Shown one piece after another: positions 11,398 to 57,886 of a stretch of DNA of 64,000 nt. Origin of the DNA: Chryseobacterium hagamense (GTDB taxonomy: Bacteria > Bacteroidota > Bacteroidia > Flavobacteriales > Weeksellaceae); contig NZ_BJYJ01000003.1 in NCBI RefSeq assembly GCF_007991455.1, forward strand, positions 148,715-212,714, given 5' to 3'. Numbering within the stretch: the stretch's first letter is position 1; the number at the start of each line of letters is the position of its first letter. Position numbers and translations under genes: made by a program. The notes beneath the pieces are model-generated. The model did no database searches. It was not told where the DNA came from and saw nothing but the letters and a program-made list of their open reading frames with translations.

Positions 11398-11522
11398 CTG
11401 TAACTTTTACGTTTTTAATCCTGTTTTTTGATTGGATAAATTTCCCGGCTGTACAGTAAGTTTTTATTAACTTCACTAAAAATGCAGGCGCGTAACCGGT
11501 CAAGTAATAAATTAATGTATTA

Positions 11523-14500
11523 TTGCAACAAAATTTGATTTTGTCCAACAGGCTGTTGTTTTTTCTCTTCATTCTCCTCTGCCTGCCTCTTTATGGCCAG
11601 CAGTACAGCCTTACGCATTACAATACGGATAACGGGCTTCCGCAAAACAGTGTAAAAGACATCACCAAAGACAAATATGGCTTTATATGGCTGACTACCG
11701 AAAACGGTGTTGTACGCTATGACGGCTCTGCATTTCTGGTTTTCAAGGATTTTCCGATCAACAACCAGCGTTTTACCTTTTTTTACGGCAATATCAAAAA
11801 CGACAGCATACTTACCGGTGCCGGCTATCACACCATCCTGCTTAATAAAAGGACGGCAAAAGTCTTTAAAGATTCCCGGCATTCCGGCATACGCTATGAA
11901 TATGGCCCTCATCATAAACGGTTTCCCGTAAGCTATAATTACCATCCTAATCAGGGAGGTTCTTTTTATCTGATGCTTAAAGAAGGACGTTATTTTATAA
12001 CCGATTCTTCCGTTACATACCAACAGCCGGTCTCTCTGAAGGAAACCTCGCTCAGGCTTAAAACGGTATTCAAAAATAGAAATACCGTTTTCACACTAGA
12101 TGAAAAGCTCTACAATATTAATTATGCTACAGGAAAAGTATGCAGGATCACCAAAGGAAAAATAACGGCGTCTTATGATATTCCGCTTTTAACGGATAAA
12201 AACAGTCTGGTCTTATGGAGCCAGATCAACAATGCCGTATTTATCGTTAAGGACCAAAAAATCTATACCCTCTCTCATGAAAAAGAACATTTCAGGATAG
12301 ACAGGCTTGCCGAACTGGGCACGCTCAACGTTCAGCATCTAACATGCGCTTTTTATGATAAAACGTATGACAAACTGTACCTCGGAAGCAGTATCGAAGG
12401 AATGAAGGTGCTGAGTTTCCATCAGTTTTTTTCAACAAAAGAACAGGACAGCAACACTACCGTATTCTATTCTACCCTGCCCTATGATCATGCAAGTGTA
12501 ATCACTCCGAAAGGCCAGATCTACAGCCGGAACGGCATGCTCGCAGACAAAGTATTTGAAACGGACAGTCAGTATTTCGTAAGCTACGATCCGGATAAGA
12601 ACATCATCGTACAGGACTCGGGAAAAATATACGCCTATCTGAAGTCTTCTTCTTTTTCAACCCGCCGCCTCATTACGGAAATCCCGGATATTTTCGTAGA
12701 TTTTATCCATGACCAGCAGCGGTATTATGCAATTACCCGTCCTACATCAAGGCAGTATACCGGAGGGCATCTGGTGATTTATAAAGACCGCTCATTCAGC
12801 AGGATAGAAAAGCGTATTCCTTTATCGGCCGAACCGACCAAGCTTTTTATGGCCAATGGTTTCCTGTGGGTCGGAACCATCAGGGGAATGGTTAAAATCT
12901 CCTTAGATTCCTACCGGAAGGAGAATATTGGTCCCTACAAAGATATTTATATCCGGAACATTGTCAGGAGCAACAATGGCCGCCTGTGGATTACGACACT
13001 GGGAAAAGGATTTTATCTGCTGAAAAACAATGAACTCATCAAAATGCCGCTGGATGCAGACAAAAACTTACTGTCGGCGCACACCATTATGGAAGATGAA
13101 AAACATTTTTTATGGATCCCGACGAACAACGGCCTCTATAAAGTGCATGAGCAGAAACTTCTGGAAGCCGCTGACGGTAAAAAAAACGAAGTCAGCTACT
13201 ACCGGTATACAAAGGATGCCGGATTTAATACCAATGAATTCAACGGCGGCAGCAACATCTGCGGAAACCGGTTGAAAAACGGTGATTTCGTCCTGCCTTC
13301 ACTGGACGGACTGGTCTTCTTCAATCCGCTGAAAACAAAAAGCAGATACCCTGAGGATTTTTATCTGGAAAGAGCCCTGGTCGATGGAAAAGAAATCAGG
13401 TTTTCAGAAGGTTTCACCGTTGATCAGGAAGTACAGAAGATCGATATTTTCATCGACGTCCCTTATTTTGCCAACCGGAACAATGTGGTAATCAAGCTGA
13501 ACCGCGGCACGGGAAATAGGTGGGAAAACATCGAACCGGGTATGAAGATTTCCCTTTTCAACCCTTCTTACGGCGATTATGGGTACACCCTTAAAATCCT
13601 TACCTCAGACAACGGGAACTGCATCTATAAAAAAATCCGGATCCGGGTTACTCCCTATTTTTATCAGACAGTATGGTTTAAATTGGCCGGGCTTCTGCTC
13701 CTGTCCATGCTGATTGTTTTCATCATTAAAATCCGGACCCGAATTTTAAAGAACAAAAACCTGATGCTGGAAGAGATCATTGAAGCACGTACCCAAAAAC
13801 TTTCTGCTGCCATAGAAAATCTTGAAAAGACCAAAAGCCAGCTGAATAATGAGATTGAACAGCAGAAAAAACTGATCGGCACCATTACCCATGACATTAC
13901 GACACCCATTAAATTTATTGCATTTGCCGCTCAGGATATTTTAGACAACGGTGAGCATGATGAAGAAAAGCTGCGCCGGATTCTTACTTCCATTTCAAAG
14001 TCTTCCGGACAGCTGTACAATTTCACTCTTGCCCTGAAAGAATATGCAGACATCTATAACCATCACAGGAGCAGCCAGAAAGAAAGGTACAGGCTGTACG
14101 ATCTGATCGAGGAAAAAAAAGAACTTTTTGACCCGATTGCCGTTGACCGCAATACCGTAATTGAGAACGGCGTCAACCCGGGTATTTACCTGGACATCAA
14201 TAAAAATACATTATCCGTCATCATTCATAATCTGCTGGATAATGCCGTAAAATTTACCAGGCAGGGCCATATCCGCATTGAATCCGGGACTGAGGAGGAT
14301 TCTGCTGTTATCGTGATTAAAGACAACGGCATTGGCATGAGTCCTTCGCAAATGGAGTATTATACTTCGCTTCACCGGAATATGGATGACAAGAAACTGC
14401 TGCTCCAGAAATACGGCATGGGCCTGCACCTCGTCCTGCAGCTGATCCACATCCTGGACGGAAAAATCGAACTGGAAAGCAATACGCCTTCCGGCACTGT

Positions 14501-16608: not shown

Positions 16609-17106
16609 TTAGTTGATATCCTCCAGACTGCGGATCATCCAGATGGTACAGGAATCATGTCCGGAATTGCACAACGGCTGTTCCAGCAACCGGAACCCTG
16701 ATTTTTCATACATTTTTACAGCTTTCGAGAACTCCGGCAGGCTTTCCAGGTATACCTTCTCATATCCCATTTCTTTTGCACTGGCAATGCTTTTCATCAT
16801 CAGGCTTTTTCCGAGTCCTATGCCTCTGGCCTCCGGACGGAGATAAAATTTGGCCAGCTCCGCACATCCTTCCGGTAATCCTTCCGTGGGATAAATTCCG
16901 CAGCATCCGGAGATAACGCCATCAGCTTCTCCTACCCAAAGCACGGATTTTTCTTTCCTGAATAACGTATATAAATCGAAAACGGCAGGATCGGAATAGA
17001 CCGTTCCTTCTTTCGGGGCGTTAAATTCTGTAAAGGTATTCCTGATCAGTAGTGCAAGTGCTTCATTGTCTGACTTTTCAACTTTTCTGATAACGATCTT
17101 CTCCAT
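16609..17106 (-). CDS. GNAT family N-acetyltransferase
   Basis: Acetyl-CoA-binding motif RPEARGIGLGKSLM. The internal Met (MEKIVIRKV) is taken as the start. Confidence 0.75.
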   Translation of the reverse strand: MEKIVIRKVEKSDNEALALLIRNTFTEFNAPKEGTVYSDPAVFDLYTLFRKEKSVLWVGEADGVISGCCGIYPTEGLPEGCAELAKFYLRPEARGIGLGKSLMMKSIASAKEMGYEKVYLESLPEFSKAVKMYEKSGFRLLEQPLCNSGHDSCTIWMIRSLEDIN

Positions 17107-17435
17107 AATAGCTCTAATTGATTCAAAATTACTGCAATCCTTTTCAGCAGACAAAAAATTCCGTAAAAACATCCGATTTGAGTCCGGATTTCTTAAAGAG
17201 TTTGATTTAACCTTACAAAAAATACCATTTGACCTTTAGAACGTCCTGATACAACCGGAAAATTTTCCCGCTCCGCTTCCCTCTTTCAACACTTCAAATC
17301 TGATTAAATAAATTCAGTTTGACAAATAAGAGACGATTCGTATAATCATCAACGCCTTTATCGCATTTATGACAGAATGAACTTCCATCATCCAGCTTCC
17401 CTCTTCCAGCTTGTCACTATTCTTCCTACTTTGGG

Positions 17436-17456
17436 TTCACGTTAACTTAACGTGAA
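17436..17456. promoter_or_regulatory. 21-bp palindrome TTCACGTTAA-C-TTAACGTGAA in a 770-bp noncoding region
   Basis: 10-bp arms are perfect with a 1-nt centre. The TCACGTTAA half-site recurs at about 17871 and about 8241. Confidence 0.3.
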
Positions 17457-17875
17457 TTCGATCTTATAAAATCATATTCAGGATTTTACTTAATTCAGGA
17501 ATTAAGGTGGATTCATTCGGGATTTTAAACAGAATTTCTTCTGGCGGAAGGAAGGAATGGTTCACTCTTCTGATAGGATTTTATCCTATACTGTATTAAG
17601 CCGTCCCTCCGGGACTTTAAGACAACATAAAATCATCCATATTCAATTCATATTCAATATTTTAAATAACATGAAACCGTTCATATCAATACTATATTCA
17701 GATATTTAATTAATTCAAAAATAAAATTGAGATTATCTTATTCAGGATTAAATAAGAACTTCATCTGACAAAACGACAAAATGTATATGATCAATAGGAT
17801 CTGCAACCCTGTTTTTGACAAGATAAACTTCCGGCATCCGGCATCCCTCTTCCAGCCTTTTCATCCGAAGTCACG

Positions 17876-19907: not shown

Positions 19908-20606
19908 CTATAATTTCACACTGCCCATTCCCCCGTCTATTCCGAAAACCTGTCCGGTAATCCATGAAGCGTGATCCGAAATCAGGAAGGCTGCCATGGC
20001 CGCAATTTCTTCAGGATTCCCGGTTCTCTGCAGCGGATGTCTTTTGGCGGAAGCCTCGCGTTTTTCAGGGGTCGATAGCAGCTGTGCTGCCAGCTGGGTA
20101 TCCGTTAGAGAGGGCGCAATGGCATTCACCCTGATTTTCTGTGCGGAAAATTCGGCAGCCAGGCTTTTTGTCAGTCCTTCCACCGCATTCTTACTGGCAG
20201 AAACCGAAGCATGGAAAGGCATTCCCAGCTTTGCCGCCACGGAACTGAACAAGACCACGGAAGCACTTTCAGACTTTTTAAGGTTAGGCAATAGTTTCTG
20301 GATTATTTTTACCGCTCCCAATACATTGATTTCAAAGTCGTTTTTAAAATTCTCCACCGAAAGCCGGTTAAAAGGTTTCAGGTTGATGCTGCCCGGTGCA
20401 TACACCAATCCGTCCACTACCTCCGGAAAAGCAATTTCGTCGGGATTCCCTGAAAGGATATCCATTACATGAAATTCGATATTCGGATGGTTCAGTTCCG
20501 GATTGCCGGTTTTTGAAATTCCGATGATGTGGTGTTCTTCCGAAAGGATTTTTGCCGCGGCCAGGCCGATTCCTCTTCCGCAGCCGATGATGACGATGTT
20601 TTTCAT
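19908..20606 (-). CDS. SDR family oxidoreductase
   Basis: Rossmann motif IIGCGRGIGLA, a catalytic S...YxxxK context, 232 aa. Confidence 0.85.
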   Translation of the reverse strand: MKNIVIIGCGRGIGLAAAKILSEEHHIIGISKTGNPELNHPNIEFHVMDILSGNPDEIAFPEVVDGLVYAPGSINLKPFNRLSVENFKNDFEINVLGAVKIIQKLLPNLKKSESASVVLFSSVAAKLGMPFHASVSASKNAVEGLTKSLAAEFSAQKIRVNAIAPSLTDTQLAAQLLSTPEKREASAKRHPLQRTGNPEEIAAMAAFLISDHASWITGQVFGIDGGMGSVKL

Positions 20607-20631
20607 ATTTATTTTTTATGTTATCTTTTGA

Positions 20632-20985
20632 ATGTTTTTTGAACACAGAGTCCGCGAAGCTTTTTTAACTACCAGCCGCTTTCAGGTTTCACAAAGGCAT
20701 TTCATTTATAAAAGCCCACAGCGCATTTTTCATACATCCGTTTATCTTAATGTCATGCTGAACCAAACTTCTCCTGGATCTGACGAAGGAAAACCATGTT
20801 ATTGCTTAGGTTCTTTTGAATACAGAGCCCACGAAGCTTTTTTTACTACTAACTGCTTTCAGGTTTCAAAAGGCATTTCATTTCTAAAAGCCCACAGCGC
20901 ATTTTCATACCTGGGCCTTACGAAGGAAAGCTTTGTTTCCTACCTAATTTATTTTGACTGTAAGCCAGAAAAAGATCTCTAATCA
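20632..20985 (+). repeat. Array of about 2 units of an interspersed repeat of about 175 bp (MITE-like)
   Basis: Unit: gaacacagagtccacgaagcttttttt-actactaactgctttcaggtttcacaaaggcatttcatttataaaagcccacagcgcattttcatacctgggcctgacgaaggaaag... Near-identical copies occur at 21425-21640 and, inverted, at 57225-57475. Confidence 0.7.
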
Positions 20986-21075
20986 GCACTAAACTCAGCT
21001 TCTGATCATAGTACCCTAAAACTTATATTTAACTGATTTTAACCCATTTCTTTGTCTCAGTCTTAAGTTTTACCT

Positions 21076-21357
21076 CTATCTCTTCGAAATCTTATTATGG
21101 CTGATGATCCGCTGGCGGCTGCTTTTGAACCGCTGGATTTCCTCACTCCGTTTTTTCAGGTGCTTCTGGCTGACTCCCGAATTCACTCTTTTTCTCCAAA
21201 GCTTAAAACTCGATTCCTTAAGCTCGGAACGCATGAGTTCGATGACTTCCGCTTCACTGATCCCGAACTGGAACCGGATGGCTTCAAAAGGGGTCCGGTC
21301 TTCCCATGCCATTTCGATGATGCGGTCGGTTTCCTGTATGGTGAAATTTTTATTCAT
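21076..21357 (-). CDS. DUF2805 / TIGR03643 family protein (cryptochrome-associated)
   Basis: 93 aa. FTIQETDRIIEMAWEDRTPFEAIRFQFGISEAEVIELMR is the characteristic TIGR03643 sequence. The gene lies next to the cryptochrome/photolyase pair. Confidence 0.7.
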   Translation of the reverse strand: MNKNFTIQETDRIIEMAWEDRTPFEAIRFQFGISEAEVIELMRSELKESSFKLWRKRVNSGVSQKHLKKRSEEIQRFKSSRQRIISHNKISKR

Positions 21358-21424
21358 TGTTTTTATTTTTAATTGAACCTGGAGTTCATGAAGTTTTTAT
21401 TAATTATTATATTGATTACTTAAT

Positions 21425-21640
21425 TGTCTGGCTGAATCAAGTTTCTCCTGAGCCTGACGAAGGAAAGCAATGTTTATAGCTCAGGTTCTCTTGAACACAG
21501 AGTCCACGAAGCTTTTTTTACTACTAACTGCTTTCAGGTTTCACAAAGGCATTTCATTTATAAAGCTCACAGCGCATTTTCATACCTGGGCCTGACGAAG
21601 GAATGCCTTATTTATTGATGAGCTTCTTTTGAACACCATG
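21425..21640 (+). repeat. Second array (about 1.3 units) of the same ~175-bp repeat family
   Basis: ctcctgagcctgacgaaggaaagc...gaacacagagtccacgaagctttttttactactaactgctttcaggtttcacaaaggcatttcatttataaagctcacagcgcattttcatacctgggcctgacgaaggaatgcc. Confidence 0.7.
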
Positions 21641-21751
21641 CTTACAAATAAATTCTTTACGACTATCACAAAGCTACTTCGACAGGCTCAGCATCAGCTT
21701 TTTTCACTTACAGAAGCATCACCAGACTTAATCTATCACTCAACCCCAGCC

Positions 21752-23233
21752 TTAATCGCTCAAACCCTTAATCACCTTTTCAGCGGTTTTCAGGTGCTGT
21801 TTTCTTTTTTCTTCCGGCATTTTTTCCAGGGTGCGTACCATCATTGAGAGCCTTGGATTCTTCAGGAAGAAATCCTTATGTTCGTGAATAAAATTCCAGA
21901 ACAGTGCGTCCCATTTTTCCGTCCATTCGCCGCTGGGGTAATCGCTCATTTTTTTCAGGTAGTTGCTTCCGCTGATGTACGGCTTCGTGCTCATCTTCCC
22001 GCCGTCGGAGAAGCTGCTCATGCCGTAGACATTCGGAACCATCACCCAGTCATAGGAATCGATGAACATTTCCATAAACCACTGATAGACTTCATCCGGA
22101 TTGAACCGGCAAAGGTTCATGAAATTGGCAAAAACCATGAGCCTTTCAATATGATGGGCATAGCCGGTCTTCAGGATTTTTTTCAATGAACGGTCTATCG
22201 GGTGAATACCTGTTTCAGCCGTATAGAAGGTTTCCGGAAGTTTATTCTGATGGTTCCAGTAATTTTTATTCCGCTGATAGGTTCCCTGGTATACATAAAC
22301 ACCACGCACGAATTCCCGCCAGCCGACAATCTGCCGGATAAAACCTTCCAGCGAGTTGACCGGAATATCGTCTTCTTTCGCAAAGGCAATTGCCTTCTCC
22401 AATACATTTTCTGCAGTCAGAAGGCCCACATTCAGCAATGGGGAAAGGATGCTGTGATGCAGGAAATGCTCTTTTTCCACAATACTGTCTTCATACACCC
22501 CGAATTCGGCAAACCGGTTTTCAAAAAACTGGACCAGCCATTTTTCCGCTTCCCCGAAAGTGGTGGGATACAGCTGTTCTTCGGTCAGGCTGCCATAGTT
22601 ATCGGCAAAATGTTTTTCCGTATATTCTTTAGCCTCTTTGAAATAAACATTGTTCTCAGGGAAATGAATCGACGGTGCTTTCCGGTTCTTGGGATATTTC
22701 TTCCGGTTTTCCGTATCAAACGTCCACTTTCCGCCCAGCGGCTTTCCGGTTTTCATCAGGATGTTCCGGGTGATCCGCTGCTGTTTATAAAAATCGGTCT
22801 GATGATAGGATTTTTTATCCCCGAAATATTCTTTAAGGTCTTCTCTGGTGTTGATAAACAACGGGCTGTCCAGGATCTCAAGTGCAAGTTTTGTTTTCCG
22901 CAACCTTTTTTCCAGCCAATGGTCGCAGACATCGGTTGTTTTTATGGCTTTAAAGCCTTCCTCCTCAAGCTTTGGGATCAGTTTCCTGAGGTCTGAAATT
23001 TCAGAAGAGCTTTCAATATATTCCACTTTAAAACCTGCTTTTTCCAGAAAATCCTCATAAAATTTCATCGTAGCACGGTGGAAGGCAATTTTCTGTTTGT
23101 GGAAAGCATACTGCCTGAAAAACAGGAATTCTTCCAGCAGGAAAACCGGCTGGTTTTTATCTAAATACTCCGTGTCTTCAAACAGCTGGTGCGGGAAAAT
23201 GAGCTGGGCGGTATGTTTCAGTTTTGCAGCCAT
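21752..23233 (-). CDS. Cryptochrome/photolyase-family protein, DPRP / FeS-BCP (PhrB-like) type
   Basis: 493 aa. N-terminal LIFPHQLF...VFLLEE...FHKQKI (photolyase-related domain) and a C-terminal FAD-binding-type helical domain (WREF..YW, HH.ER). The start lies 16 nt inside the cry-DASH gene. Confidence 0.8.
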   Translation of the reverse strand: MAAKLKHTAQLIFPHQLFEDTEYLDKNQPVFLLEEFLFFRQYAFHKQKIAFHRATMKFYEDFLEKAGFKVEYIESSSEISDLRKLIPKLEEEGFKAIKTTDVCDHWLEKRLRKTKLALEILDSPLFINTREDLKEYFGDKKSYHQTDFYKQQRITRNILMKTGKPLGGKWTFDTENRKKYPKNRKAPSIHFPENNVYFKEAKEYTEKHFADNYGSLTEEQLYPTTFGEAEKWLVQFFENRFAEFGVYEDSIVEKEHFLHHSILSPLLNVGLLTAENVLEKAIAFAKEDDIPVNSLEGFIRQIVGWREFVRGVYVYQGTYQRNKNYWNHQNKLPETFYTAETGIHPIDRSLKKILKTGYAHHIERLMVFANFMNLCRFNPDEVYQWFMEMFIDSYDWVMVPNVYGMSSFSDGGKMSTKPYISGSNYLKKMSDYPSGEWTEKWDALFWNFIHEHKDFFLKNPRLSMMVRTLEKMPEEKRKQHLKTAEKVIKGLSD

Positions 23234-24516
23234 AGTTGTATAAATTCCTGGTTGGGATCGTACATTTCGGCCTGCTTTTCAGGATTGAAGATCCGGTCGC
23301 GGTTATCATTGCCAACACCGGCCAGGTACATCCAGTTGCCGTAATTGCTGTGGACATCATAATCGATCAGCAGCTCTTCAAAATAAGCCGCCCCGGTCCG
23401 CCAGTCCTGCTTCAGTACCTTGCAGAAATAGGAAGCTACATTCTGCCTTCCGCGGTTGCTCATCCAGCCGGTCTTGTTTAATTCAATCATATTGGCATTG
23501 ATGAAATCCGAATCCGTGGTTCCTTGCTTCCACTTACGGATCAGTTCATCATCATGTTCCCACACATATTCTTTTTTTCCGATTCCGTTTTTCCGGAAAA
23601 TCAGGTCCTGGTACTCCATAGAAACATACCTGAAAAAATCCCGCCACAGCAGTTCAAAAACCAGCCAGTACGTCGATTCGTTGCTGCCGGATTCCTGTTC
23701 GTACTTTTTAATCTCGTGATAAACGGTAACCGCGGAAAGGCTTCCGTCGGACAGCCAGGCCGAAAATTTGGAACTGTAATCAATTCCGGTTAAACCGTTC
23801 CGGGTTTCCTTATAGCTGCTGACATTCCGGGTCTCTGAAAAATAGGACTTCAGCCTGTTCAGGGCCTGCGTTTCTCCGCCACCGAAAGGAAAGGCCGTTC
23901 TGTTATCCGTTTCAAAATCTTCATATCCCAGCGATCCGAGGGTAACCTCATCACTCTGAACTTTGATCATGGCTTTGTCATAACTTATGTTTCCTGAGGC
24001 AAATTCAGGCCGGATCAGCAGATTCTTCTCAACCTTCTGCCTGAAGGCTGTAAACAGCATCGGTATTTTATCCATCGTCCTGGAAACAAACAGCGGATGC
24101 ACCAGAAACTGGGAATAGGATTTTTCCCAGCCTGCCATCGGCAGAACATTTCTGATTTCATTTTCTTTATCCCTTTCTTCTTTGGTCCATTCCTGCTGGC
24201 AGAAAATTTTTACGATGTCGAATTCACCGGACAATTCTTTAAAAACGGTTCCGGTAGTCCCCTGTCTTATCAGGAAAGGAATATTTCTCTTGTTTAAACT
24301 TTCTTTCAGATCTTCTATCGTTTCCAGCAGGAATCTTGCGCGGTATTTCCCGGTTTTCCTGCTGCCAAACTGCTTACTTCCGAAATCACGGCCGTCAAAA
24401 ACATACACTGCAAGGAAAGGCAATCTTTCCTGCATAATGTTGTATAACGGTTCCGAATCTCGGGTCCTCAGGTCTTTGGTGAACCAGAGGATGTTGATTT
24501 TTTGTTTTTCCGGCAT
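23218..24516 (-). CDS. Cryptochrome DASH
   Basis: [14 protein letters not shown]... then ...WREFF and FAD-binding C-terminal motifs ([17 protein letters not shown]). The internal Met at 24516 is preferred over the ORF-track start at 24558. Confidence 0.8.
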
Positions 24517-24624
24517 CTTTCGCTGCAATATTTTACTTCGTCCCAGTTTTTCTTCCATTTTTTTCGCCAGTTGAACGGCAATCCGCAGACTTCGCAGATT
24601 TTGGAGGGTAATCTGGACGGCATA

Positions 24625-25944: not shown

Positions 25945-26023
25945 TTTTAAATTTTAGGTGTTTAATACAAAGTCCGCCATGGTCATCCAAAGCCGTCAGC
26001 AAGCCGCCAAAAGCTTCAAGCAA

Positions 26024-52996: not shown

Positions 52997-53015
52997 TGTT
53001 ATCCGTCATCTCTGT

Positions 53016-54424
53016 TTAACCCAAATTACGCAATAGGAAAAAAAGTAGTATTTTGGGTTTTAGAAACCCAACTGCGTAGCAGTAGAAAATTTTGAGTTAT
53101 GAAATTCGAGTTATCCTTTACCAATAAAGAGATTACACCTTGGGGTGGAATGGTATTTTTAAAGCAAATGTTGGATAAAATTGAGTTTAAACAAGAAATT
53201 GAAAGATGTGAATCCTTACCTGTTTCACTTTCCAATAATTCGTATAAAAAAGAAGTTTTGCTTGAGTCATTTATCACGAGTATTTGGTGCGGAGCCAATC
53301 GTTTTTTACATACAGAAATTACTCGTTCAGATAAAGCATTAGGAGAAATATTTGGATGGGGTAAAACTCCTGCACAAGATGCTTATAAACGTTATTTTGG
53401 AAAATTTACCCCAAATATCAATCAGCAAGTTGGTCATCATTTTTTCAGTTGGTTTTTTAACAATCTAAATCTTAACTATTTTACGCTGGACATCGATTCT
53501 TCGGTTATTACCCGATACGGTGAGCAGGAAGGAGCAAAAAAAGGCTATAATCCCAAGAAAAAAGGAAGGAATAGCCATCATCCTATTATTGCATTTGTGA
53601 ACGATGTAAAGATGGTTGCTAATTTTTGGCTCAGAAGCGGAGACACTTCTTCCGCAAACAATTTTGTGGGATTTTTAGAGGAAACACTCTTGAATTTTGG
53701 AGATAAAAAAGTAGGATTAGTACGCTTGGATAGTGGCTTTTTTCAAAAAAGCATTATGGATTATCTTGAATTAAAACAACTCCAATACATCATTGCAGCA
53801 CGATTTACCCACCCCATTCAACACTTGATAGACCAACAAAGTCTGTGGATAAGAGTAGATGACGGCATTGAGATTTGCGATAAATTTCATCAAGCAAAAA
53901 ACTGGGAAAAACCAAGAAGAATCGTCATTGTAAGGCAAAAAATAGCACAACGCCCCAAATCATCAGGAAGAACATTGAGTCTTTTTCCTGAAGATGAACT
54001 CCATCGAAATTATCGTTATTCAGCCTATATCACCAATCAAGAACACTCGGCTACTGATGTTTGGAGAACGTACCGAAACAGAGGGGATGCTGAAAATAGA
54101 ATCAAGGAATTAAAGGCAGATTTTGGAGCAGAAAGTTTTAATCTCAAAGAGTTTTTTCCTACAGAGGCTGCTCTTATATTTTCGATGATTGCCTACAATT
54201 TAATGTCTGTTTTCAGATTATTTGTTCTTCAGGAAAAAACACAGAAAACTCTATCTACACTCAGATACAGAACCTTTGCCATTGGAGCTTATTTCGAAAA
54301 AGTAGGCGATACACTCAAACTAAAAATAGCACTCACAAAAAAACGAAGAAAATGGTTCGCTGGAATTTGGGATTACCCGATTGATTGGACTAAGAAAATT
54401 TCAACTGCGTAATTTGGGTTTAAT
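53016..54424 (+). mobile_element. Intact IS1380-family insertion sequence
   Basis: Terminal inverted repeats share a perfect 15-bp core AACCCAAATTACGCA (left about 53018-53032; right TGCGTAATTTGGGTT about 54406-54420). A single DDE transposase ORF fills the interior. Confidence 0.8.
53099..54412 (+). CDS. IS1380-family DDE transposase
   Basis: 437 aa. GGMVFL N-terminal motif, then DIDSSVITRYG, NSHHPI and WRTYRNRGDAENRIKELK, typical of IS1380 / ISEcp1-like transposases. Confidence 0.85.
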   Translation: MKFELSFTNKEITPWGGMVFLKQMLDKIEFKQEIERCESLPVSLSNNSYKKEVLLESFITSIWCGANRFLHTEITRSDKALGEIFGWGKTPAQDAYKRYFGKFTPNINQQVGHHFFSWFFNNLNLNYFTLDIDSSVITRYGEQEGAKKGYNPKKKGRNSHHPIIAFVNDVKMVANFWLRSGDTSSANNFVGFLEETLLNFGDKKVGLVRLDSGFFQKSIMDYLELKQLQYIIAARFTHPIQHLIDQQSLWIRVDDGIEICDKFHQAKNWEKPRRIVIVRQKIAQRPKSSGRTLSLFPEDELHRNYRYSAYITNQEHSATDVWRTYRNRGDAENRIKELKADFGAESFNLKEFFPTEAALIFSMIAYNLMSVFRLFVLQEKTQKTLSTLRYRTFAIGAYFEKVGDTLKLKIALTKKRRKWFAGIWDYPIDWTKKISTA

Positions 54425-55061
54425 CCTTTAACATCAATAACGTGAACTGGAAGAAGAACTTTGATTAACAGGTTGGAAGAAAGAAACTGGATGCCGAAAG
54501 TTTCTCCTGTCAAAAAAAGATGATAAGAGGTCTTGATGATGAAAGCAGATCTTTTGTCATTCTATTATCCGGAGTTCTTATTTAAATCCCTGATAGACAG
54601 CTGCAGTTTTATCTTTAACTAAACAGGCAACTGAATATAAATTAAATATAGCCGGATGTATGTTGTTTTAAAATTCCGAAGGAACGGTTTTCTACAGGAT
54701 AGGATAAAATCCCATCAGAAGATTGAAGCATTTATTCATTTATCAGGAGAAGTCCCATTTAAAATCCTGACTGAATCAGTCTTATATTTTTGGATTAATT
54801 AAAAATCCGAACATAAGTTGGATCCATTCCAATTCATGTTAAACAGGAAGGAGAACAGGTTTTATTAATACAAATTTAAAATTTATCCGGATTATGTACC
54901 ATATCTTCAAAAAATACTTATACATTCGCTTCATTAGATAATCAGGTGAAAAATAGCGGAGATCCGGAATTCGGATCAATTTCTGATGCCAATCATCATC
55001 GCGACGGTAAATAACCTTAAGATTAATAAGAGGAAAAAAGTCTTTAAAATACAAATGTGTT

Positions 55062-55505
55062 ATGAAAAATTATAAAAATATTCATCTGGGCAAGCTTATC
55101 AAAGCCCGGGTACAAGAAAAGGAAATGAACGTGCGGAAAGTCTGCCGTTCTATGAAAATTACAGAGGAACAGCTGTACGAAATCTATGAATCTAAAAGTC
55201 TCGATTCCGAACAGATCCTGAGCTGGAGCAAGCTGCTGAACTATGATTTTTTCAGGATCTACAGCCAGCATCTGATCCTCTACTCACCTCCGGCATCAGA
55301 CAAAACGGATGAAAACACAAAAGAAGAAAAATCGTCACTGCCGCAGTTCCGTAAAAATATTTACACCACAGAAATCATTGATTTTATCCTTGAAATGATA
55401 AAAAAAGGTAAAAAAACCAAGCGGGAAGTGATCGAGGAATACGGTATTCCCAAAACCACTCTGTATAAATGGCTGAGTGATATCAATAAAACCAAAAACT
55501 CTTAA
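55062..55505 (+). CDS. Small HTH DNA-binding protein (hypothetical)
   Basis: Two HTH-like segments (NVRKVCRSMKITEEQLYEIY ; REVIEEYGIPKTTLYKWLS). There is no adjacent OrfB, so it is probably not an IS3 orfA. Confidence 0.45.
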   Translation: MKNYKNIHLGKLIKARVQEKEMNVRKVCRSMKITEEQLYEIYESKSLDSEQILSWSKLLNYDFFRIYSQHLILYSPPASDKTDENTKEEKSSLPQFRKNIYTTEIIDFILEMIKKGKKTKREVIEEYGIPKTTLYKWLSDINKTKNS

Positions 55506-55948: not shown

Positions 55949-57010
55949 TTAGTACAGAACGGCCATGCTTTCCGGTTTGAAATCCTGAAGCTCTTCCGTT
56001 TTTCCTTCTTTGATTTTCTGTACCCAGTGCGGGTCCTGCAATAGGGCACGGCCTACGGCAACGAGATCGAAATCTCCCCGCTCCAGCCTTTCGGTCAGTT
56101 CGGATAAATCGGTTTTTCCGGTTCCCTGTCCGGCAAAAGCAGCCATGAAATCGCCTTCCAATCCTACGGATCCTACCGTGATGGTCGGTTGTCCGGTAAT
56201 TTTTTTAGCCCAGCCTGCAAAATTCAGATCGGAACCTTCAAATTCAGCTTCCCAGAATCTTCGCTGTGAACAGTGGAAAATATCGACACCTGCTTCTTTC
56301 AGCGGCATCAGCCATTCTTCCATTTCTTCCGGGGTCTTAGCCAGCTTCGCGGAATAATCCTGCTGCTTCCACTGGGAAAGGCGGATGATGATCGTGAAAT
56401 CTTCTCCTACGGCAGCCCTGATGGCTTTAACGATATCTATGGCAAACCGGCTCCTTTCTTTCAGCGTTTTTCCTCCATACTCGTCGGTTCTGGTATTGGT
56501 TACTTCCCAGAAAAACTGATCGATCAGATAGCCGTGGGCACCATGGATTTCCAGTACGTCAAAACCTAAGTCTTTAGCCGATTTTGCCGAAGCGGCAAAC
56601 TGGGCAATCGTATCCTGGATATCCTCAAGGGTCATTGTCGATGCTTTTTCCATCGGAACCTCCGGATAATCGTCTGAACTGCGGGTATCACCGACGTGCC
56701 AGATCTGAGGTCCCATTTTTCCACCGTTATCATGGACGGCATTGATTACGTTTTGCCAGCCCTTCAAAGCTTCGGTTCCGTAAAAATCGGGGATATTCTG
56801 CATGTTTTTGGAGGCGGGCCTGTCGATCACCGTTCCTTCAGAAATAATCAATCCGACTTCCGCTTCGGCTCTCCGTGCGTAATAGTCTGCAATCTGTTTT
56901 GTGGGAACTCCGTTATCGGATTGAGCTCTCGTCATCGGGGCCATCACGATTCTGTTTTTCAGTTCTAAATTCTTATACTTAAAAGGCTTAAACAATGCGT
57001 CTGTGCTCAT
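55949..57010 (-). CDS. Old Yellow Enzyme family NADH:flavin oxidoreductase / alkene reductase
   Basis: NRIVMAPMTR, HGAHGYL and RFWEAEFEGSD-type OYE motifs. 353 aa. Confidence 0.85.
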   Translation of the reverse strand: MSTDALFKPFKYKNLELKNRIVMAPMTRAQSDNGVPTKQIADYYARRAEAEVGLIISEGTVIDRPASKNMQNIPDFYGTEALKGWQNVINAVHDNGGKMGPQIWHVGDTRSSDDYPEVPMEKASTMTLEDIQDTIAQFAASAKSAKDLGFDVLEIHGAHGYLIDQFFWEVTNTRTDEYGGKTLKERSRFAIDIVKAIRAAVGEDFTIIIRLSQWKQQDYSAKLAKTPEEMEEWLMPLKEAGVDIFHCSQRRFWEAEFEGSDLNFAGWAKKITGQPTITVGSVGLEGDFMAAFAGQGTGKTDLSELTERLERGDFDLVAVGRALLQDPHWVQKIKEGKTEELQDFKPESMAVLY

Positions 57011-57224
57011 TTTTTAATATCTATTTTATAATTGTTACACAAAGTAACTAATAATAGTTCAAATTTGTATCCTTGTAGAAAAAAAAGTAGTAACTTCGCG
57101 GTAACTGATATTGGTAACGCGGAGGTAACTCAGGGAGTCGCGAAAGGTAAAAGTTGAGAAAAAGGCTTTCCTCCGCCGCGCTCAGGATGAACCGGGTTCA
57201 GCCTGACAATAAGATAAATGCACG

Positions 57225-57475
57225 TATAAAAATGCGCTGTGGGCTTTTATAAATGAAATGTCTTTGTGAAACTTAAAAGCACTTAGTAGTTAAAAAAAGC
57301 TTTGTGGACTTTGTGTTCCAAGGAGCTTAAGCAATAAACAGGGCTTTCCTTCGTCAGGCCCAGGTATGAAAATATGCTGTGGGCTTTTATAAATGAAATG
57401 CCTTCGTGAAACTTAAAAGCACTCAGTAGTTAAAAAAATCTTCGCGGGCTTTGTGTTCATAAAAGCATATCAGCC
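57225..57475 (-). repeat. Inverted array (about 1.5 units) of the ~175-bp repeat family
   Basis: Reverse complement of the units at 20632-20985 and 21425-21640 (…aaaatgcgctgtgggcttttataaatgaaatg(c/t)ctt(c/t)gtgaaacttaaaagcac…). Lies between the divergent OYE and hxlR promoters. Confidence 0.7.
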
Positions 57476-57496
57476 AAAAATTATAAACAAACTGTC

Positions 57497-57886
57497 ATGA
57501 AAAAGAACGAATTAATGCAGTACAGCTGCCCTTTAGGCAAGGCCATGTCGGCTTTGGGAAGCAAATGGAAACCGATCATCGTACTGGTCATCAAAGACCG
57601 CAAACTGCGTTTCGGGGAATTGGCCGTACGCATCCATGTGATTTCCAGGAAAGTCCTTACCGACCAGCTGCGGGAAATGCAAACCGACGGACTCGTCATC
57701 CGGGAAGAGTTTAAGGAACTTCCGCCAAGGGTGGAATATTCCCTGACTGAAAAAGGGCTGGCCCTGCTCCCGATCCTCCACCTGCTGGAAGAGTGGGAAA
57801 TGAAATACCATGTGTATGATCCTGAGAAAGTGAAGGATTGTAAGATGATTCTGGAAGGGAAAAAGATACAAAAGACTATTGTTTAA
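57497..57886 (+). CDS. HxlR-family winged-helix transcriptional regulator
   Basis: CPLGKAMSALGSKWKPIIV...RFGEL...ISRKVLTDQLREMQTDGLV is the canonical HxlR sequence. Confidence 0.85.
   Translation: MKKNELMQYSCPLGKAMSALGSKWKPIIVLVIKDRKLRFGELAVRIHVISRKVLTDQLREMQTDGLVIREEFKELPPRVEYSLTEKGLALLPILHLLEEWEMKYHVYDPEKVKDCKMILEGKKIQKTIV

What the first reader, a model, noticed from the sequence alone, without database searches (positions are those of the whole stretch)
20632..21640. ~175-bp interspersed repeat family in tandem arrays that bracket the DUF2805 gene and interrupt the photoreceptor operon
Units beginning gaacacagagtcc(a/g)cgaagcttttttt...ctgctttcaggtttcacaaaggcatttcatttataaaagcccacagcgcattttcatacctgggcctgacgaaggaa occur in three places: about 2 units at 20632-20985, about 1.3 units at 21425-21640, and about 1.5 units inverted at 57225-57475.

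The first two arrays sit on either side of the 93-aa DUF2805 gene. One of them separates it from the photolyase-related gene that normally abuts it.

The element has MITE/REP-like properties: it is intergenic, variable in unit number and occurs in both orientations. It may supply promoters or terminators or RNA structure, and it may have been mobilised recently.
Basis: seen in the sequence. Interest (0 to 1): 0.5.

Follow-up and report, generated by a model that had tools for sequence, protein, structure and literature searches.

The report
Chryseobacterium mosaic intergenic repeat arrays
A real but ordinary family of non-coding 140-177-bp repeat units, related to small transposon-like elements in other Chryseobacterium species, fills three gene-to-gene gaps in this Chryseobacterium hagamense region, including two gaps of a photolyase/cryptochrome gene cluster whose genes directly abut in many relatives.

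Summary
The repeat is real (nhmmer E 1e-37 to 1e-42 between copies). The window comes from Chryseobacterium hagamense.

Each unit has two modules:
- M1, about 95 nt, starts TTGAACAC and carries 3-4 direct CRCAAAG words.
- M2 is a CCTGAGCCTGACGAAGGAAAGCC module. Its long form adds a 37-nt arm that completes an imperfect hairpin.

This gives 177-nt long units and about 140-nt short units. The arrays are larger than reported: 20639-20950, 21373-21745 (reaching the photolyase-related gene's stop codon) and 57163-57460.

Related copies occur in 26 of 81 sampled Chryseobacterium, Epilithonimonas and Kaistella loci. Some species carry complete forms with about 22-nt terminal inverted repeats, or inverted M1 pairs. 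The same operon gaps range from 0-10 nt to 400-800 nt across species, and different species fill them with different repeat families.

The C. hagamense units are 79-94% identical across all three loci. Their positional orthologues in sister species are only 50-68% identical. The sites are therefore old, but their content was recently homogenised or replaced.

I found no Rfam match, conserved RNA structure, terminator, canonical promoter or ORF.

Best reading: a MITE-derived mosaic repeat that expands by tandem duplication and spreads between existing arrays. It is a new member of a known kind, of modest interest.

The parts
20639..20815 (+). Unit A1, long form (177 nt). M1 is about 20639-20733, the long M2 with hairpin arm is 20742-20795, and a linker runs to 20815. 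The M1 5' end lies 32 nt from the SDR start codon (20606, minus strand).
   Evidence: nhmmer E 4.6e-38. Module hits. Alignment.
20816..20950 (+). Unit A2, short form. M1 is 20816-20907 and the short M2 is 20910-20932, followed by a tail.
   Evidence: nhmmer E 4.7e-41. Its M1 is 94% identical to that of unit B1.
21373..21393 (+). Truncated M1 5'-end remnant (TTGAACCTGGAGTTCATGAAG), 15 nt upstream of the DUF2805 start codon.
   Evidence: Read from the sequence. The same remnant sits at the same place in L001, L002, L003 and L058.
21406..21490 (+). B0: a long M2 module without an M1, plus the inter-unit linker.
   Evidence: nhmmer E 2.2e-12 with the full model and 4e-15 with the M2 model. Collinear with 20742-20800 (family D10).
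21491..21628 (+). Unit B1, short form.
   Evidence: nhmmer E 9.5e-42.
21629..21745 (+). Older, degenerate 'g1-type' unit with a CTTCGACAGGCTCAGCA insert. It abuts the stop codon of the photolyase-related (DPRP) gene at 21752.
   Evidence: Weak by HMM (E 0.02-0.09). It aligns along its length with the orthologous g1 units of L001-L004 and with the L082 HxlR-gap unit.
57342..57460 (-). Unit C1, short form. Its M1 5' end lies about 37 nt upstream of the HxlR start codon (57497, plus strand).
   Evidence: nhmmer E 1.2e-40. Geometry.
57163..57341 (-). Unit C2, long form (M1 plus long M2), with the linker to C1.
   Evidence: nhmmer E 9e-37. The hairpin module scores E 1.5e-12.
25961..25984 (+). Possible solo M1 5'-end remnant (TTTAATACAAAGTCCGCCATGG), 16 nt upstream of the ABC1-kinase start codon.
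   Evidence: Weak alone (E 1.3). The same TetR-ABC1 gap holds a full M1 in L012, L014, L016, L032, L038 and L048.
19908..24558 (-). Host gene cluster interrupted by arrays A and B: cry-DASH-type photolyase (23218-24558), DPRP photolyase-related protein (21752-23233), DUF2805 (21076-21357) and SDR (19908-20606).
   Evidence: Pfam hits. Conserved gene order in 60+ loci.
55949..57886 (.). Divergent gene pair flanking array C: OYE-family NADH:flavin oxidoreductase (55949-57010, minus) and HxlR regulator (57497-57886, plus).

Best explanation
The units are non-coding, selfish or neutral mosaic intergenic repeats of a family spread through Chryseobacterium and its close relatives. Each unit joins two modules. 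M1 starts TTGAACRCAAAG..CRCAAAG, and in other species this sequence serves as the terminal inverted repeat of complete 165-180-nt MITE-like elements. M2 is a CCTGAGCCTGACGAAGGA module whose long form makes an imperfect 11-bp hairpin.

Shown here:
- Ancestral elements entered very short, A-rich spacers between co-directional or divergent genes. In doing so they broke stop/start overlaps such as TAATG.
- The same gaps are empty in many species and filled in others.
- Array content changes faster than the unique DNA around it.
- In C. hagamense one unit variant now occupies three sites that were already occupied in sister species.

Inferred:
- The original spread was by transposition, using a transposase supplied in trans that has not been identified.
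- Head-to-tail arrays then grew and shrank by unequal recombination or replication slippage.
- The recent homogenisation came either from gene conversion between arrays or from re-insertion into existing copies.
- The arrays are probably transcribed through as long intercistronic spacers, and have no dedicated function.
For: 1. The family is real and modular. Copy-to-copy E-values are 1e-37 to 1e-42. The alignment shows M1, M2 and the 37-nt long/short difference.
2. It is non-coding. The only ORF across array A has no homologue among 5.8 billion proteins, and the arrays are read in different frames.
3. It is widespread. Iterated nhmmer gives 60 hits in 26 of 81 sources, plus the HxlR-OYE gap of further sister contigs.
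4. Complete transposon-like forms exist.
   - The DPRP-DUF2805 gap of L012, L015 and L029 holds a 165-nt element. Its ends TTTTAACCACAAAAGACACAAAAG and TTTTAACGCAAAGTCCGCAAAG (reverse complement) align with score 36, against a shuffle mean of 15 +/- 3 and maximum of 28. It is flanked by a direct ATC.
   - L024 and L027 carry inverted M1 pairs that fold into long palindromes.
5. Presence or absence varies among species at four independent gaps.
   - DPRP-DUF2805: 0-21 nt against 98-540 nt.
   - DUF2805-SDR: 10 nt against up to 809 nt.
   - TetR-ABC1: 0-3 nt against up to 540 nt, with M1 present in L012 and L014 but absent in L013 and L015.
   - HxlR-OYE: 234 nt without units in strain SN22 against 453-486 nt with two units.

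6. Tandem growth is visible. L002 has three adjacent units that are 91-96% identical.
7. Evolution is concerted.
   - Window M1 copies are 79-94% identical across three loci, including one 36 kb away and inverted.
   - Positional orthologues in L001 are 50-68% identical, apart from one unit at about 80%.
   - In the HxlR-OYE gap the unique flanks are 86-90% identical to sister species, but the array part is only 58-59%.
8. No functional signal was found.
   - No Rfam match.
   - No terminator, and sigma-70-like sites at chance level.
   - Folding energies are ordinary, with z from -1.8 to +1.4.
   - RNAalifold finds no consensus structure for M1 on either strand.
   - The M2 hairpin shows no covariation beyond shuffles.
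   - There are no TTG-N17-21-nAnnTT[TC]G matches and only one TAnnTTTG box, which lies in the old unit.
Against: - The window's own arrays have no terminal inverted repeats (score 12-16, at the shuffle level) and no detectable target-site duplication.
- No cognate transposase was found. The one IS in the window has unrelated ends, and no M1-type inverted pair flanks a long ORF in 1.66 Mb of sampled DNA.
- The 3-bp ATC duplication rests on a single insertion event in A-rich DNA.
- No new site occupancy was seen in C. hagamense relative to sister species over about 30 kb of comparable sequence. Ongoing transposition is therefore not shown, and gene conversion alone could explain the homogeneity.
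- Genome-wide copy number could not be measured.
- The M1 5' end faces the downstream start codon at 13-57 nt in 6 of 7 independent single-orientation placements. A purely neutral model explains this only in part.
Confidence: 0.6

Rival explanations
1. M1 is a cis-regulatory cassette. Its outward end would supply a promoter, an operator or a leader to the gene immediately downstream. The arrays would then rewire expression inside the photoreceptor cluster and at hxlR.
For: - The M1 5' end lies 13-57 nt upstream of a start codon and faces it at the SDR, DUF2805, ABC1 and HxlR genes and at two unrelated genes in L043 and L021.
- M1 carries 3-4 direct CRCAAAG words. Read in the gene's sense these are CTTTGYG, which contains the TTTG of Bacteroidota promoter elements. 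The match to those promoter elements is from my own knowledge.
- The insertions break the translational coupling of DPRP and DUF2805 (TAATG), so some replacement expression signal would be useful.
- A Bacteroidota precedent exists: segments of the BrickBuilt MITE have promoter activity (PMC4596501).
Against: - The arrays contain no TTG-N17-21-nAnnTT[TC]G match and no TAnnTTTG box, apart from one box in the old unit.
- The ancestral gaps were only 0-40 nt, so any insertion ends close to a start codon.
- Complete forms carry the same end on both sides.
- Flipped copies exist in L008 and L048.
- The orientation count of 6 of 7 gives one-sided P of about 0.06.
- Concordance of word variants within a copy is marginal (P about 0.05).
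Confidence: 0.12
2. The family is a REP/BIME-type system. The M2 hairpins would be REP sequences moved by a REP-associated tyrosine transposase, and M1 would be a linker motif.
For: - The M2 consensus forms an 11-bp imperfect palindrome, GTCAGGCTGAG / CTGAGCCTGAC, with 83% of cells paired.
- The architecture is a mosaic of several small modules in intergenic gaps, including gaps inside operons.
- Other species fill the same gaps with obvious small hairpin repeats such as GGCTAAAGCC and CGGGCTAAAGCCCG.
Against: - Units are head-to-tail, not in alternating orientation.
- Short units lack one hairpin arm.
- No Y1-transposase or RAYT domain occurs among the roughly 50 window proteins scanned.
- Arrays lie in both orientations within a stretch of uniform GC skew, so there is no replication-strand bias.
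- The best-conserved module is the unstructured M1, not the hairpin.
Confidence: 0.08
3. This is purely local duplication. The three arrays would be segmental or tandem duplicates within this region and not members of a dispersed family.
For: - 20742-20957 and 21416-21632 are collinear over about 216 nt (families D1 and D10).
- Tandem copies clearly arise locally, as with the three near-identical units in L002.
- Only three loci carry the family within 64 kb.
Against: - Array C is 36 kb away and inverted, between unrelated genes.
- Related copies occur at other loci and in other genera.
- The same sites are occupied by different variants in sister species.
Confidence: 0.04
4. The units encode a structured RNA, such as an sRNA, riboswitch-like leader, attenuator or terminator.
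For: The arrays lie in transcribed-looking positions, in intercistronic gaps and a 5' region. The long M2 can form a hairpin.
Against: - No Rfam match, even at E of 10 or below.
- No terminator-like sites.
- Folding z-scores are ordinary.
- RNAalifold returns an empty consensus for 32 M1 copies on both strands.
- The M2 hairpin shows no covariation above shuffles.
Confidence: 0.03

Closest known systems
Bacterial MITEs, in particular the BrickBuilt MITE of Porphyromonas gingivalis (PMC4596501)
   Same: - Small, non-coding, strictly intergenic and multi-copy, with a narrow host range, in the phylum Bacteroidota.
- Built from subunits with an internal tandemly repeated part.
- Related complete forms here have about 22-nt terminal inverted repeats and a possible 3-bp duplication.
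   Different: - The window's arrays lack inverted ends and duplications.
- The repeated part is the whole 140-177-nt unit, present 1-3 times, not a 23-nt minisatellite.
- No promoter activity or partner IS is known.
BIMEs / REP sequences of Enterobacteria and Pseudomonas, mobilised by RAYT transposases (PMC2817692)
   Same: - Mosaic combinations of a few short modules.
- Located between genes, including inside operons.
- Variable copy number in arrays.
- One module (M2) is an imperfect palindrome.
   Different: - Units are direct, not alternating.
- The dominant module (M1) is not palindromic.
- No RAYT was seen in the window.
- There is no sequence similarity.
MIRUs of Mycobacterium tuberculosis and BOX elements of Streptococcus pneumoniae (from my own knowledge)
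   Same: - Direct tandem units of tens to about 100+ nt sit in intercistronic gaps of operons, mostly in one orientation relative to transcription (MIRU).
- The architecture is modular, with a variable number of the middle module (BOX).
   Different: - MIRU units contain short ORFs that overlap the flanking stop and start codons. No such ORFs occur here.
- BOX elements form stable RNA structures, and none is predicted here.
- There is no sequence similarity.
Putative mobile promoters (PMC3488235)
   Same: Homologous 50-100-nt non-coding segments are found immediately upstream of unrelated genes in one genome.
   Different: That category is defined by position alone. Here no promoter motif was found, and the segment is part of a larger repeat unit.

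Membership tests
MITE | Terminal inverted repeats at the two ends of the element | tested here: not met
   Window gaps: end-to-end alignment scores 12-16, equal to the shuffle level of 15 +/- 3. The feature is met only by related elements in other species: L012, L015 and L029 score 32-36, and L024 and L027 carry inverted pairs.
MITE | Target-site duplication flanking the element | tested here: inconclusive
   None is visible at the window arrays. There is a direct ATC at the L012-type element, from one event in A-rich DNA. The L013 versus L012 and L029 versus L032 junctions are ambiguous.
MITE | Small, non-coding and present in multiple dispersed copies | tested here: met
   Units are 140-177 nt. 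The spanning ORF has no homologue. There are three loci in 64 kb and further loci in relatives. Genome-wide copy number could not be measured.
MITE | A full-length IS with the same ends that supplies the transposase | tested here: inconclusive
   None was found in 1.66 Mb of sampled loci. The window's only IS (53015-54425, DDE_Tnp_1_4) has unrelated ends. Whole genomes could not be searched.
REP / BIME (REPIN-RAYT) | Short imperfect palindromes arranged in alternating orientation | tested here: not met
   All units within an array are head-to-tail. The M2 palindrome is present in long units only.
REP / BIME (REPIN-RAYT) | An associated RAYT (Y1 transposase) gene flanked by the repeats | tested here: inconclusive
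   No Y1-transposase domain occurs among the roughly 50 window ORFs scanned with Pfam. The rest of the genome was not available.
Structured RNA family (Rfam) | Match to a curated covariance model, or a conserved structure with covariation | tested here: not met
   No Rfam match. The alifold consensus is empty. The M2 helix shows no covariation above shuffles.
MIRU-type operon repeats | Direct tandem units in intercistronic gaps that carry short ORFs overlapping the flanking stop and start codons | tested here: not met
   Position and direct tandem arrangement fit. No sense-strand ORF of 40 aa or more lies in arrays A or B.

The most novel reading that the evidence does not exclude
M1 would be a protein-binding platform made of four direct CRCAAAG words. 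It would be actively copied into pre-existing copies by a homing-like, copy-into-copy spread that needs no inverted ends. Its outward end would supply expression signals to the gene 13-57 nt downstream. On this reading the arrays would be operon-internal regulatory spacers that rewire light- and stress-related genes.
Probability: 0.1. Interest if true: 0.6.

Novelty: new member of a known kind. Interest (0 to 1): 0.3.

Why it matters
This matters mainly for annotation and for understanding genome evolution.

- These arrays generate spurious ORFs, such as 20632-20982.
- They inflate operon gaps from a few bases to several hundred.
- They break stop/start overlaps that normally couple translation, such as TAATG between DPRP and DUF2805.

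The comparative picture is a clean small example of concerted evolution in bacterial non-coding repeats. The operon gaps stay the same, but different species fill them with different repeat families. The content of the arrays also turns over much faster than the surrounding unique DNA.

The family would become more interesting if the M1 end proved to drive or modulate expression of the downstream genes. Nothing found here requires that.

Tried and rejected
- Exact-pattern scans for the unit core gave 0 hits in genome contigs, 1 hit in metagenome contigs and 0 in viral contigs. The core is too variable for exact matching, and the source species is not among the representative genomes.
- blastn of array A against plasmids and phages found nothing.
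- I searched the array-spanning ORF against the protein database, as a census through spurious gene calls. It found nothing.
- Looking up the window's HxlR and DUF2805 proteins by exact sequence found no record. The organism was identified instead from a 100%-identical OYE protein.
- Tandem Repeats Finder does not see the arrays.
- Rfam searches at gathering and at E-value thresholds found nothing meaningful.
- The promoter and terminator hypotheses failed: sigma-70 and terminator scans were at or below chance, and there were no Bacteroidota-type boxes.
- The structured-RNA hypothesis was rejected.
- A search for an autonomous element bounded by M1-type ends found none.
- The window's IS was tested as a possible partner, but its ends are unrelated.
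- Co-variation of the CRCAAAG word variants within copies is only marginal (P about 0.05).
- An apparent ORF-free 4.3 kb at the window start turned out to be one long ORF running off the window edge.
- The literature search found no description of this family.

Full report
**Observation**

The sequence shows the reported repeat at all three places. The repeat finder links 20639-20957, 21416-21632 and, inverted, 57221-57469. A profile built from five units recovers them at E 9.5e-42 to 9e-37, so chance is excluded. Tandem Repeats Finder missed the arrays, because adjacent units differ by a 37-nt indel.

The alignment shows two unit sizes:
- a long form of 177 nt (20639 to 20816);
- a short form of about 140 nt (57221 to 57361).

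- Array A is 20639-20950, one long unit and one short unit.
- Array B has four parts:
  - a 21-nt remnant of the unit's 5' end at 21373-21393;
  - a lone long 3' module at 21406-21490;
  - a full short unit at 21491-21628;
  - an older degenerate unit at 21629-21745, which touches the stop codon of the photolyase-related gene.
- Array C is two full units on the minus strand, 57163-57460.

**Context**

Pfam confirms the minus-strand cluster: ABC1 kinase, cry-DASH-type photolyase, DPRP (photolyase-related protein), DUF2805 and SDR. Array C lies between a divergently transcribed OYE-family flavin oxidoreductase gene and an HxlR regulator gene. A 100%-identical OYE protein identifies the source as Chryseobacterium hagamense.

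**Anatomy**

Each unit joins two modules.
- M1 is about 95 nt and starts TTGAACAC. It carries three or four direct CRCAAAG words, a T-run and the conserved stretch ACTACTAACTG...GTTTCACAAAGSCRTTTCAYTTATAAAAGC.
- M2 is CCTGAGCCTGACGAAGGAAAGCC followed by a short linker.

In long units, an extra arm (TTGTCAGGCTGAGC...) precedes M2 and completes an imperfect 11-bp hairpin. Arrays can begin or end with either module.

**Distribution**

The exact-pattern scans of genomes, metagenomes and viral contigs were nearly empty. I therefore fetched 80 orthologous loci using the DPRP protein and searched them with an iterated nhmmer profile. This gave 60 hits in 26 of 81 sources. The sources are labelled Chryseobacterium, Epilithonimonas and Kaistella. 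Hits lie in the orthologous gaps and also at unrelated loci (L043, L024, L027, L021). Seven further contigs carrying the OYE-HxlR pair were retrieved through protein homologues. Nothing similar occurs in plasmid or phage collections.

**Comparative evidence on the gaps**

- DPRP to DUF2805. In 40 loci the two genes are 0-21 nt apart, typically AAATAATG with the stop codon overlapping the start codon. In the window and 25 loci of its clade the gap is 98-540 nt.
- DUF2805 to SDR. The gap ranges from 10 nt to 809 nt.
- TetR to ABC1. The gap ranges from 0-3 nt to about 540 nt. A full M1 is present in L012, L014, L016, L032, L038 and L048 and absent in L013, L015 and L017. The window keeps only a 24-nt remnant.
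- HxlR to OYE. The gap is 486 nt with two units in the window and 453-463 nt with two units in three sister contigs. It is 234 nt without units in strain SN22.

Different species fill the same gaps with quite different small repeats. Examples are GGCTAAAGCC-type hairpins, GCCACGAATGCACGAAT palindromes, CTTCGACAAGCTCAGCCTGACA modules and GAGATTTTAGAT words. These short, A-rich spacers are therefore recurrent landing or retention sites for small repeats.

**Link to transposable elements**

In L012, L015 and L029 the DPRP-DUF2805 gap holds a 165-nt element. Its two ends are inverted copies of the M1 start. They align with score 36, against 15 +/- 3 and a maximum of 28 in 500 shuffles. The element is flanked by a direct ATC.

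L024 and L027 carry two M1 modules tail-to-tail, forming 170-180-nt palindromes. The M1 start therefore behaves as a terminal inverted repeat elsewhere in the genus.

The window's own arrays have no inverted ends (score 12-16) and no visible duplication. No element with these ends and a transposase gene was found in the 1.66 Mb sampled. The one IS in the window has unrelated ends.

**Dynamics**

M1 identity within the window is 79-94% across all three loci. The units that occupy the same positions in the closest relative, L001, are 50-68% identical to them and to each other. The exception is one L001 unit at about 80%.

In the HxlR-OYE gap, the unique DNA on both sides of the array is 86-90% identical between the window and sister contigs. 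The array itself is only 58-59% identical and consists of a different sub-type.

The sites are therefore old, but in C. hagamense one variant has recently replaced or joined the older units. One old unit survives at 21629-21745. L002 shows plain tandem amplification, with three units 91-96% identical.

I cannot tell gene conversion between arrays from re-insertion into existing copies. No new site was seen in about 30 kb of comparable sequence.

**Function tests, all negative**

- Rfam gave no match at gathering thresholds and only chance-level matches at E up to 10.
- There are no terminator-like sites, and sigma-70-like sites are at the shuffle level.
- Unit folding energies are ordinary on both strands, with z from -1.8 to +1.4.
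- RNAalifold gives an empty consensus for 32 diverse M1 copies on both strands.
- The M2 helix is 83% paired, but its changes are not compensated. Shuffles do equally well.
- A scan for the Bacteroidota promoter pattern (TTG, about 19 nt, TAnnTTTG; the pattern is from my own knowledge) finds nothing in the arrays. The only exception is one box in the old unit.
- The ORF across array A has no homologue.

**One regularity that remains**

In 6 of 7 independent single-orientation placements, the M1 5' end faces the next start codon at 13-57 nt. The small size of the ancestral gaps forces part of this, as does the presence of the same end on both sides of complete elements. The orientation count gives a one-sided P of about 0.06. 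Concordance of word variants within a copy is also marginal (P about 0.05). I keep a regulatory-cassette reading as a minority rival.

**Comparison with known families**

- MITEs. The family behaves like a MITE-derived mosaic repeat. BrickBuilt of Porphyromonas gingivalis is the nearest described case in the phylum (PMC4596501). As MITEs, the window's arrays fail the inverted-repeat test. The duplication and partner-IS tests are inconclusive.
- REP/BIME (PMC2817692). The arrays fail the alternating-palindrome test, and no RAYT was found in the window.
- MIRUs. The arrays share the operon-gap, direct-tandem layout but lack the bridging ORFs.
- Literature. I found no description of this family in the searchable papers. 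A large MITE census of Bacteroidota exists (PMC11602168) and may already contain the complete forms.

**Verdict**

It is a genus-level family rather than a local duplication. The 'MITE/REP-like' label is only partly right. It is a new member of a known kind with an instructive evolutionary pattern, and I found no evidence of a dedicated function. I score interest at 0.3.

Noticed in passing
window 53015-54425: An insertion sequence carries a DDE_Tnp_1_4 / DDE_Tnp_1 transposase (53099-54412). Its inverted ends are TTTAACCCAAATTACGCA and TGCGTAATTTGGGTTTAA. The transposase segment has no match in the peptidase C1-OYE gap of four sister contigs. The ends are unrelated to the repeat family.
   Followed up: partly
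window 17366-17870 and 54470-54900 (reverse complement): A second, unrelated repeat of about 400 nt, 79-82% identical between its two copies, contains CTTCCGGCATCCGGC-type words. Each copy lies upstream of a small gene: a GNAT acetyltransferase at 16609-17172 and an HTH_7 protein at 55062-55505. Shorter word matches occur at 8165, 34900 and 37196.
   Followed up: partly
window 25945-26023; L012 6872-6957 and orthologues: The TetR-ABC1 gap of the same gene cluster is a further variable site. The two genes are 0-3 nt apart in L005, L008, L019 and L021. The gap holds a full M1 plus about 400 nt of other repeats in L012, L014, L032, L038 and L048. In the window only a 24-nt remnant is left.
   Followed up: yes
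L005-L063, gaps DPRP-DUF2805 and DUF2805-SDR (about 11470-12800 in most loci): Other species fill the same two operon gaps with other small repeat families. These include GGCTAAAGCC / CGGGCTAAAGCCCG hairpins and GCCACGAATGCACGAAT...ATTCGTGCATTCGTGGC palindromes. They also include a 3.5-copy tandem array of a 118-nt unit in L017, and GAGATTTTAGAT words in Cloacibacterium.
   Followed up: partly
window 20632-20982 (+): A 116-aa ORF spans array A exactly and reads through two repeat units. It has no homologue in the protein database and is most likely a spurious gene call.
   Followed up: yes
window 1-4316 (-): The ORF lister shows no ORFs here. The stretch is in fact one open reading frame of at least 1438 codons that runs off the window's left edge. 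It lies next to two proteins with no Pfam match (4283-5296 and 5308-6138).
   Followed up: partly
window 57011-57160: The part of the HxlR-OYE gap next to the array is conserved in all sister contigs, including the one without units. It contains repeated GTTACC words and a GTTAC-TTTGT-GTAAC palindrome near the OYE start. This is probably the HxlR operator and promoter region, and the array now separates it from hxlR.
   Followed up: no
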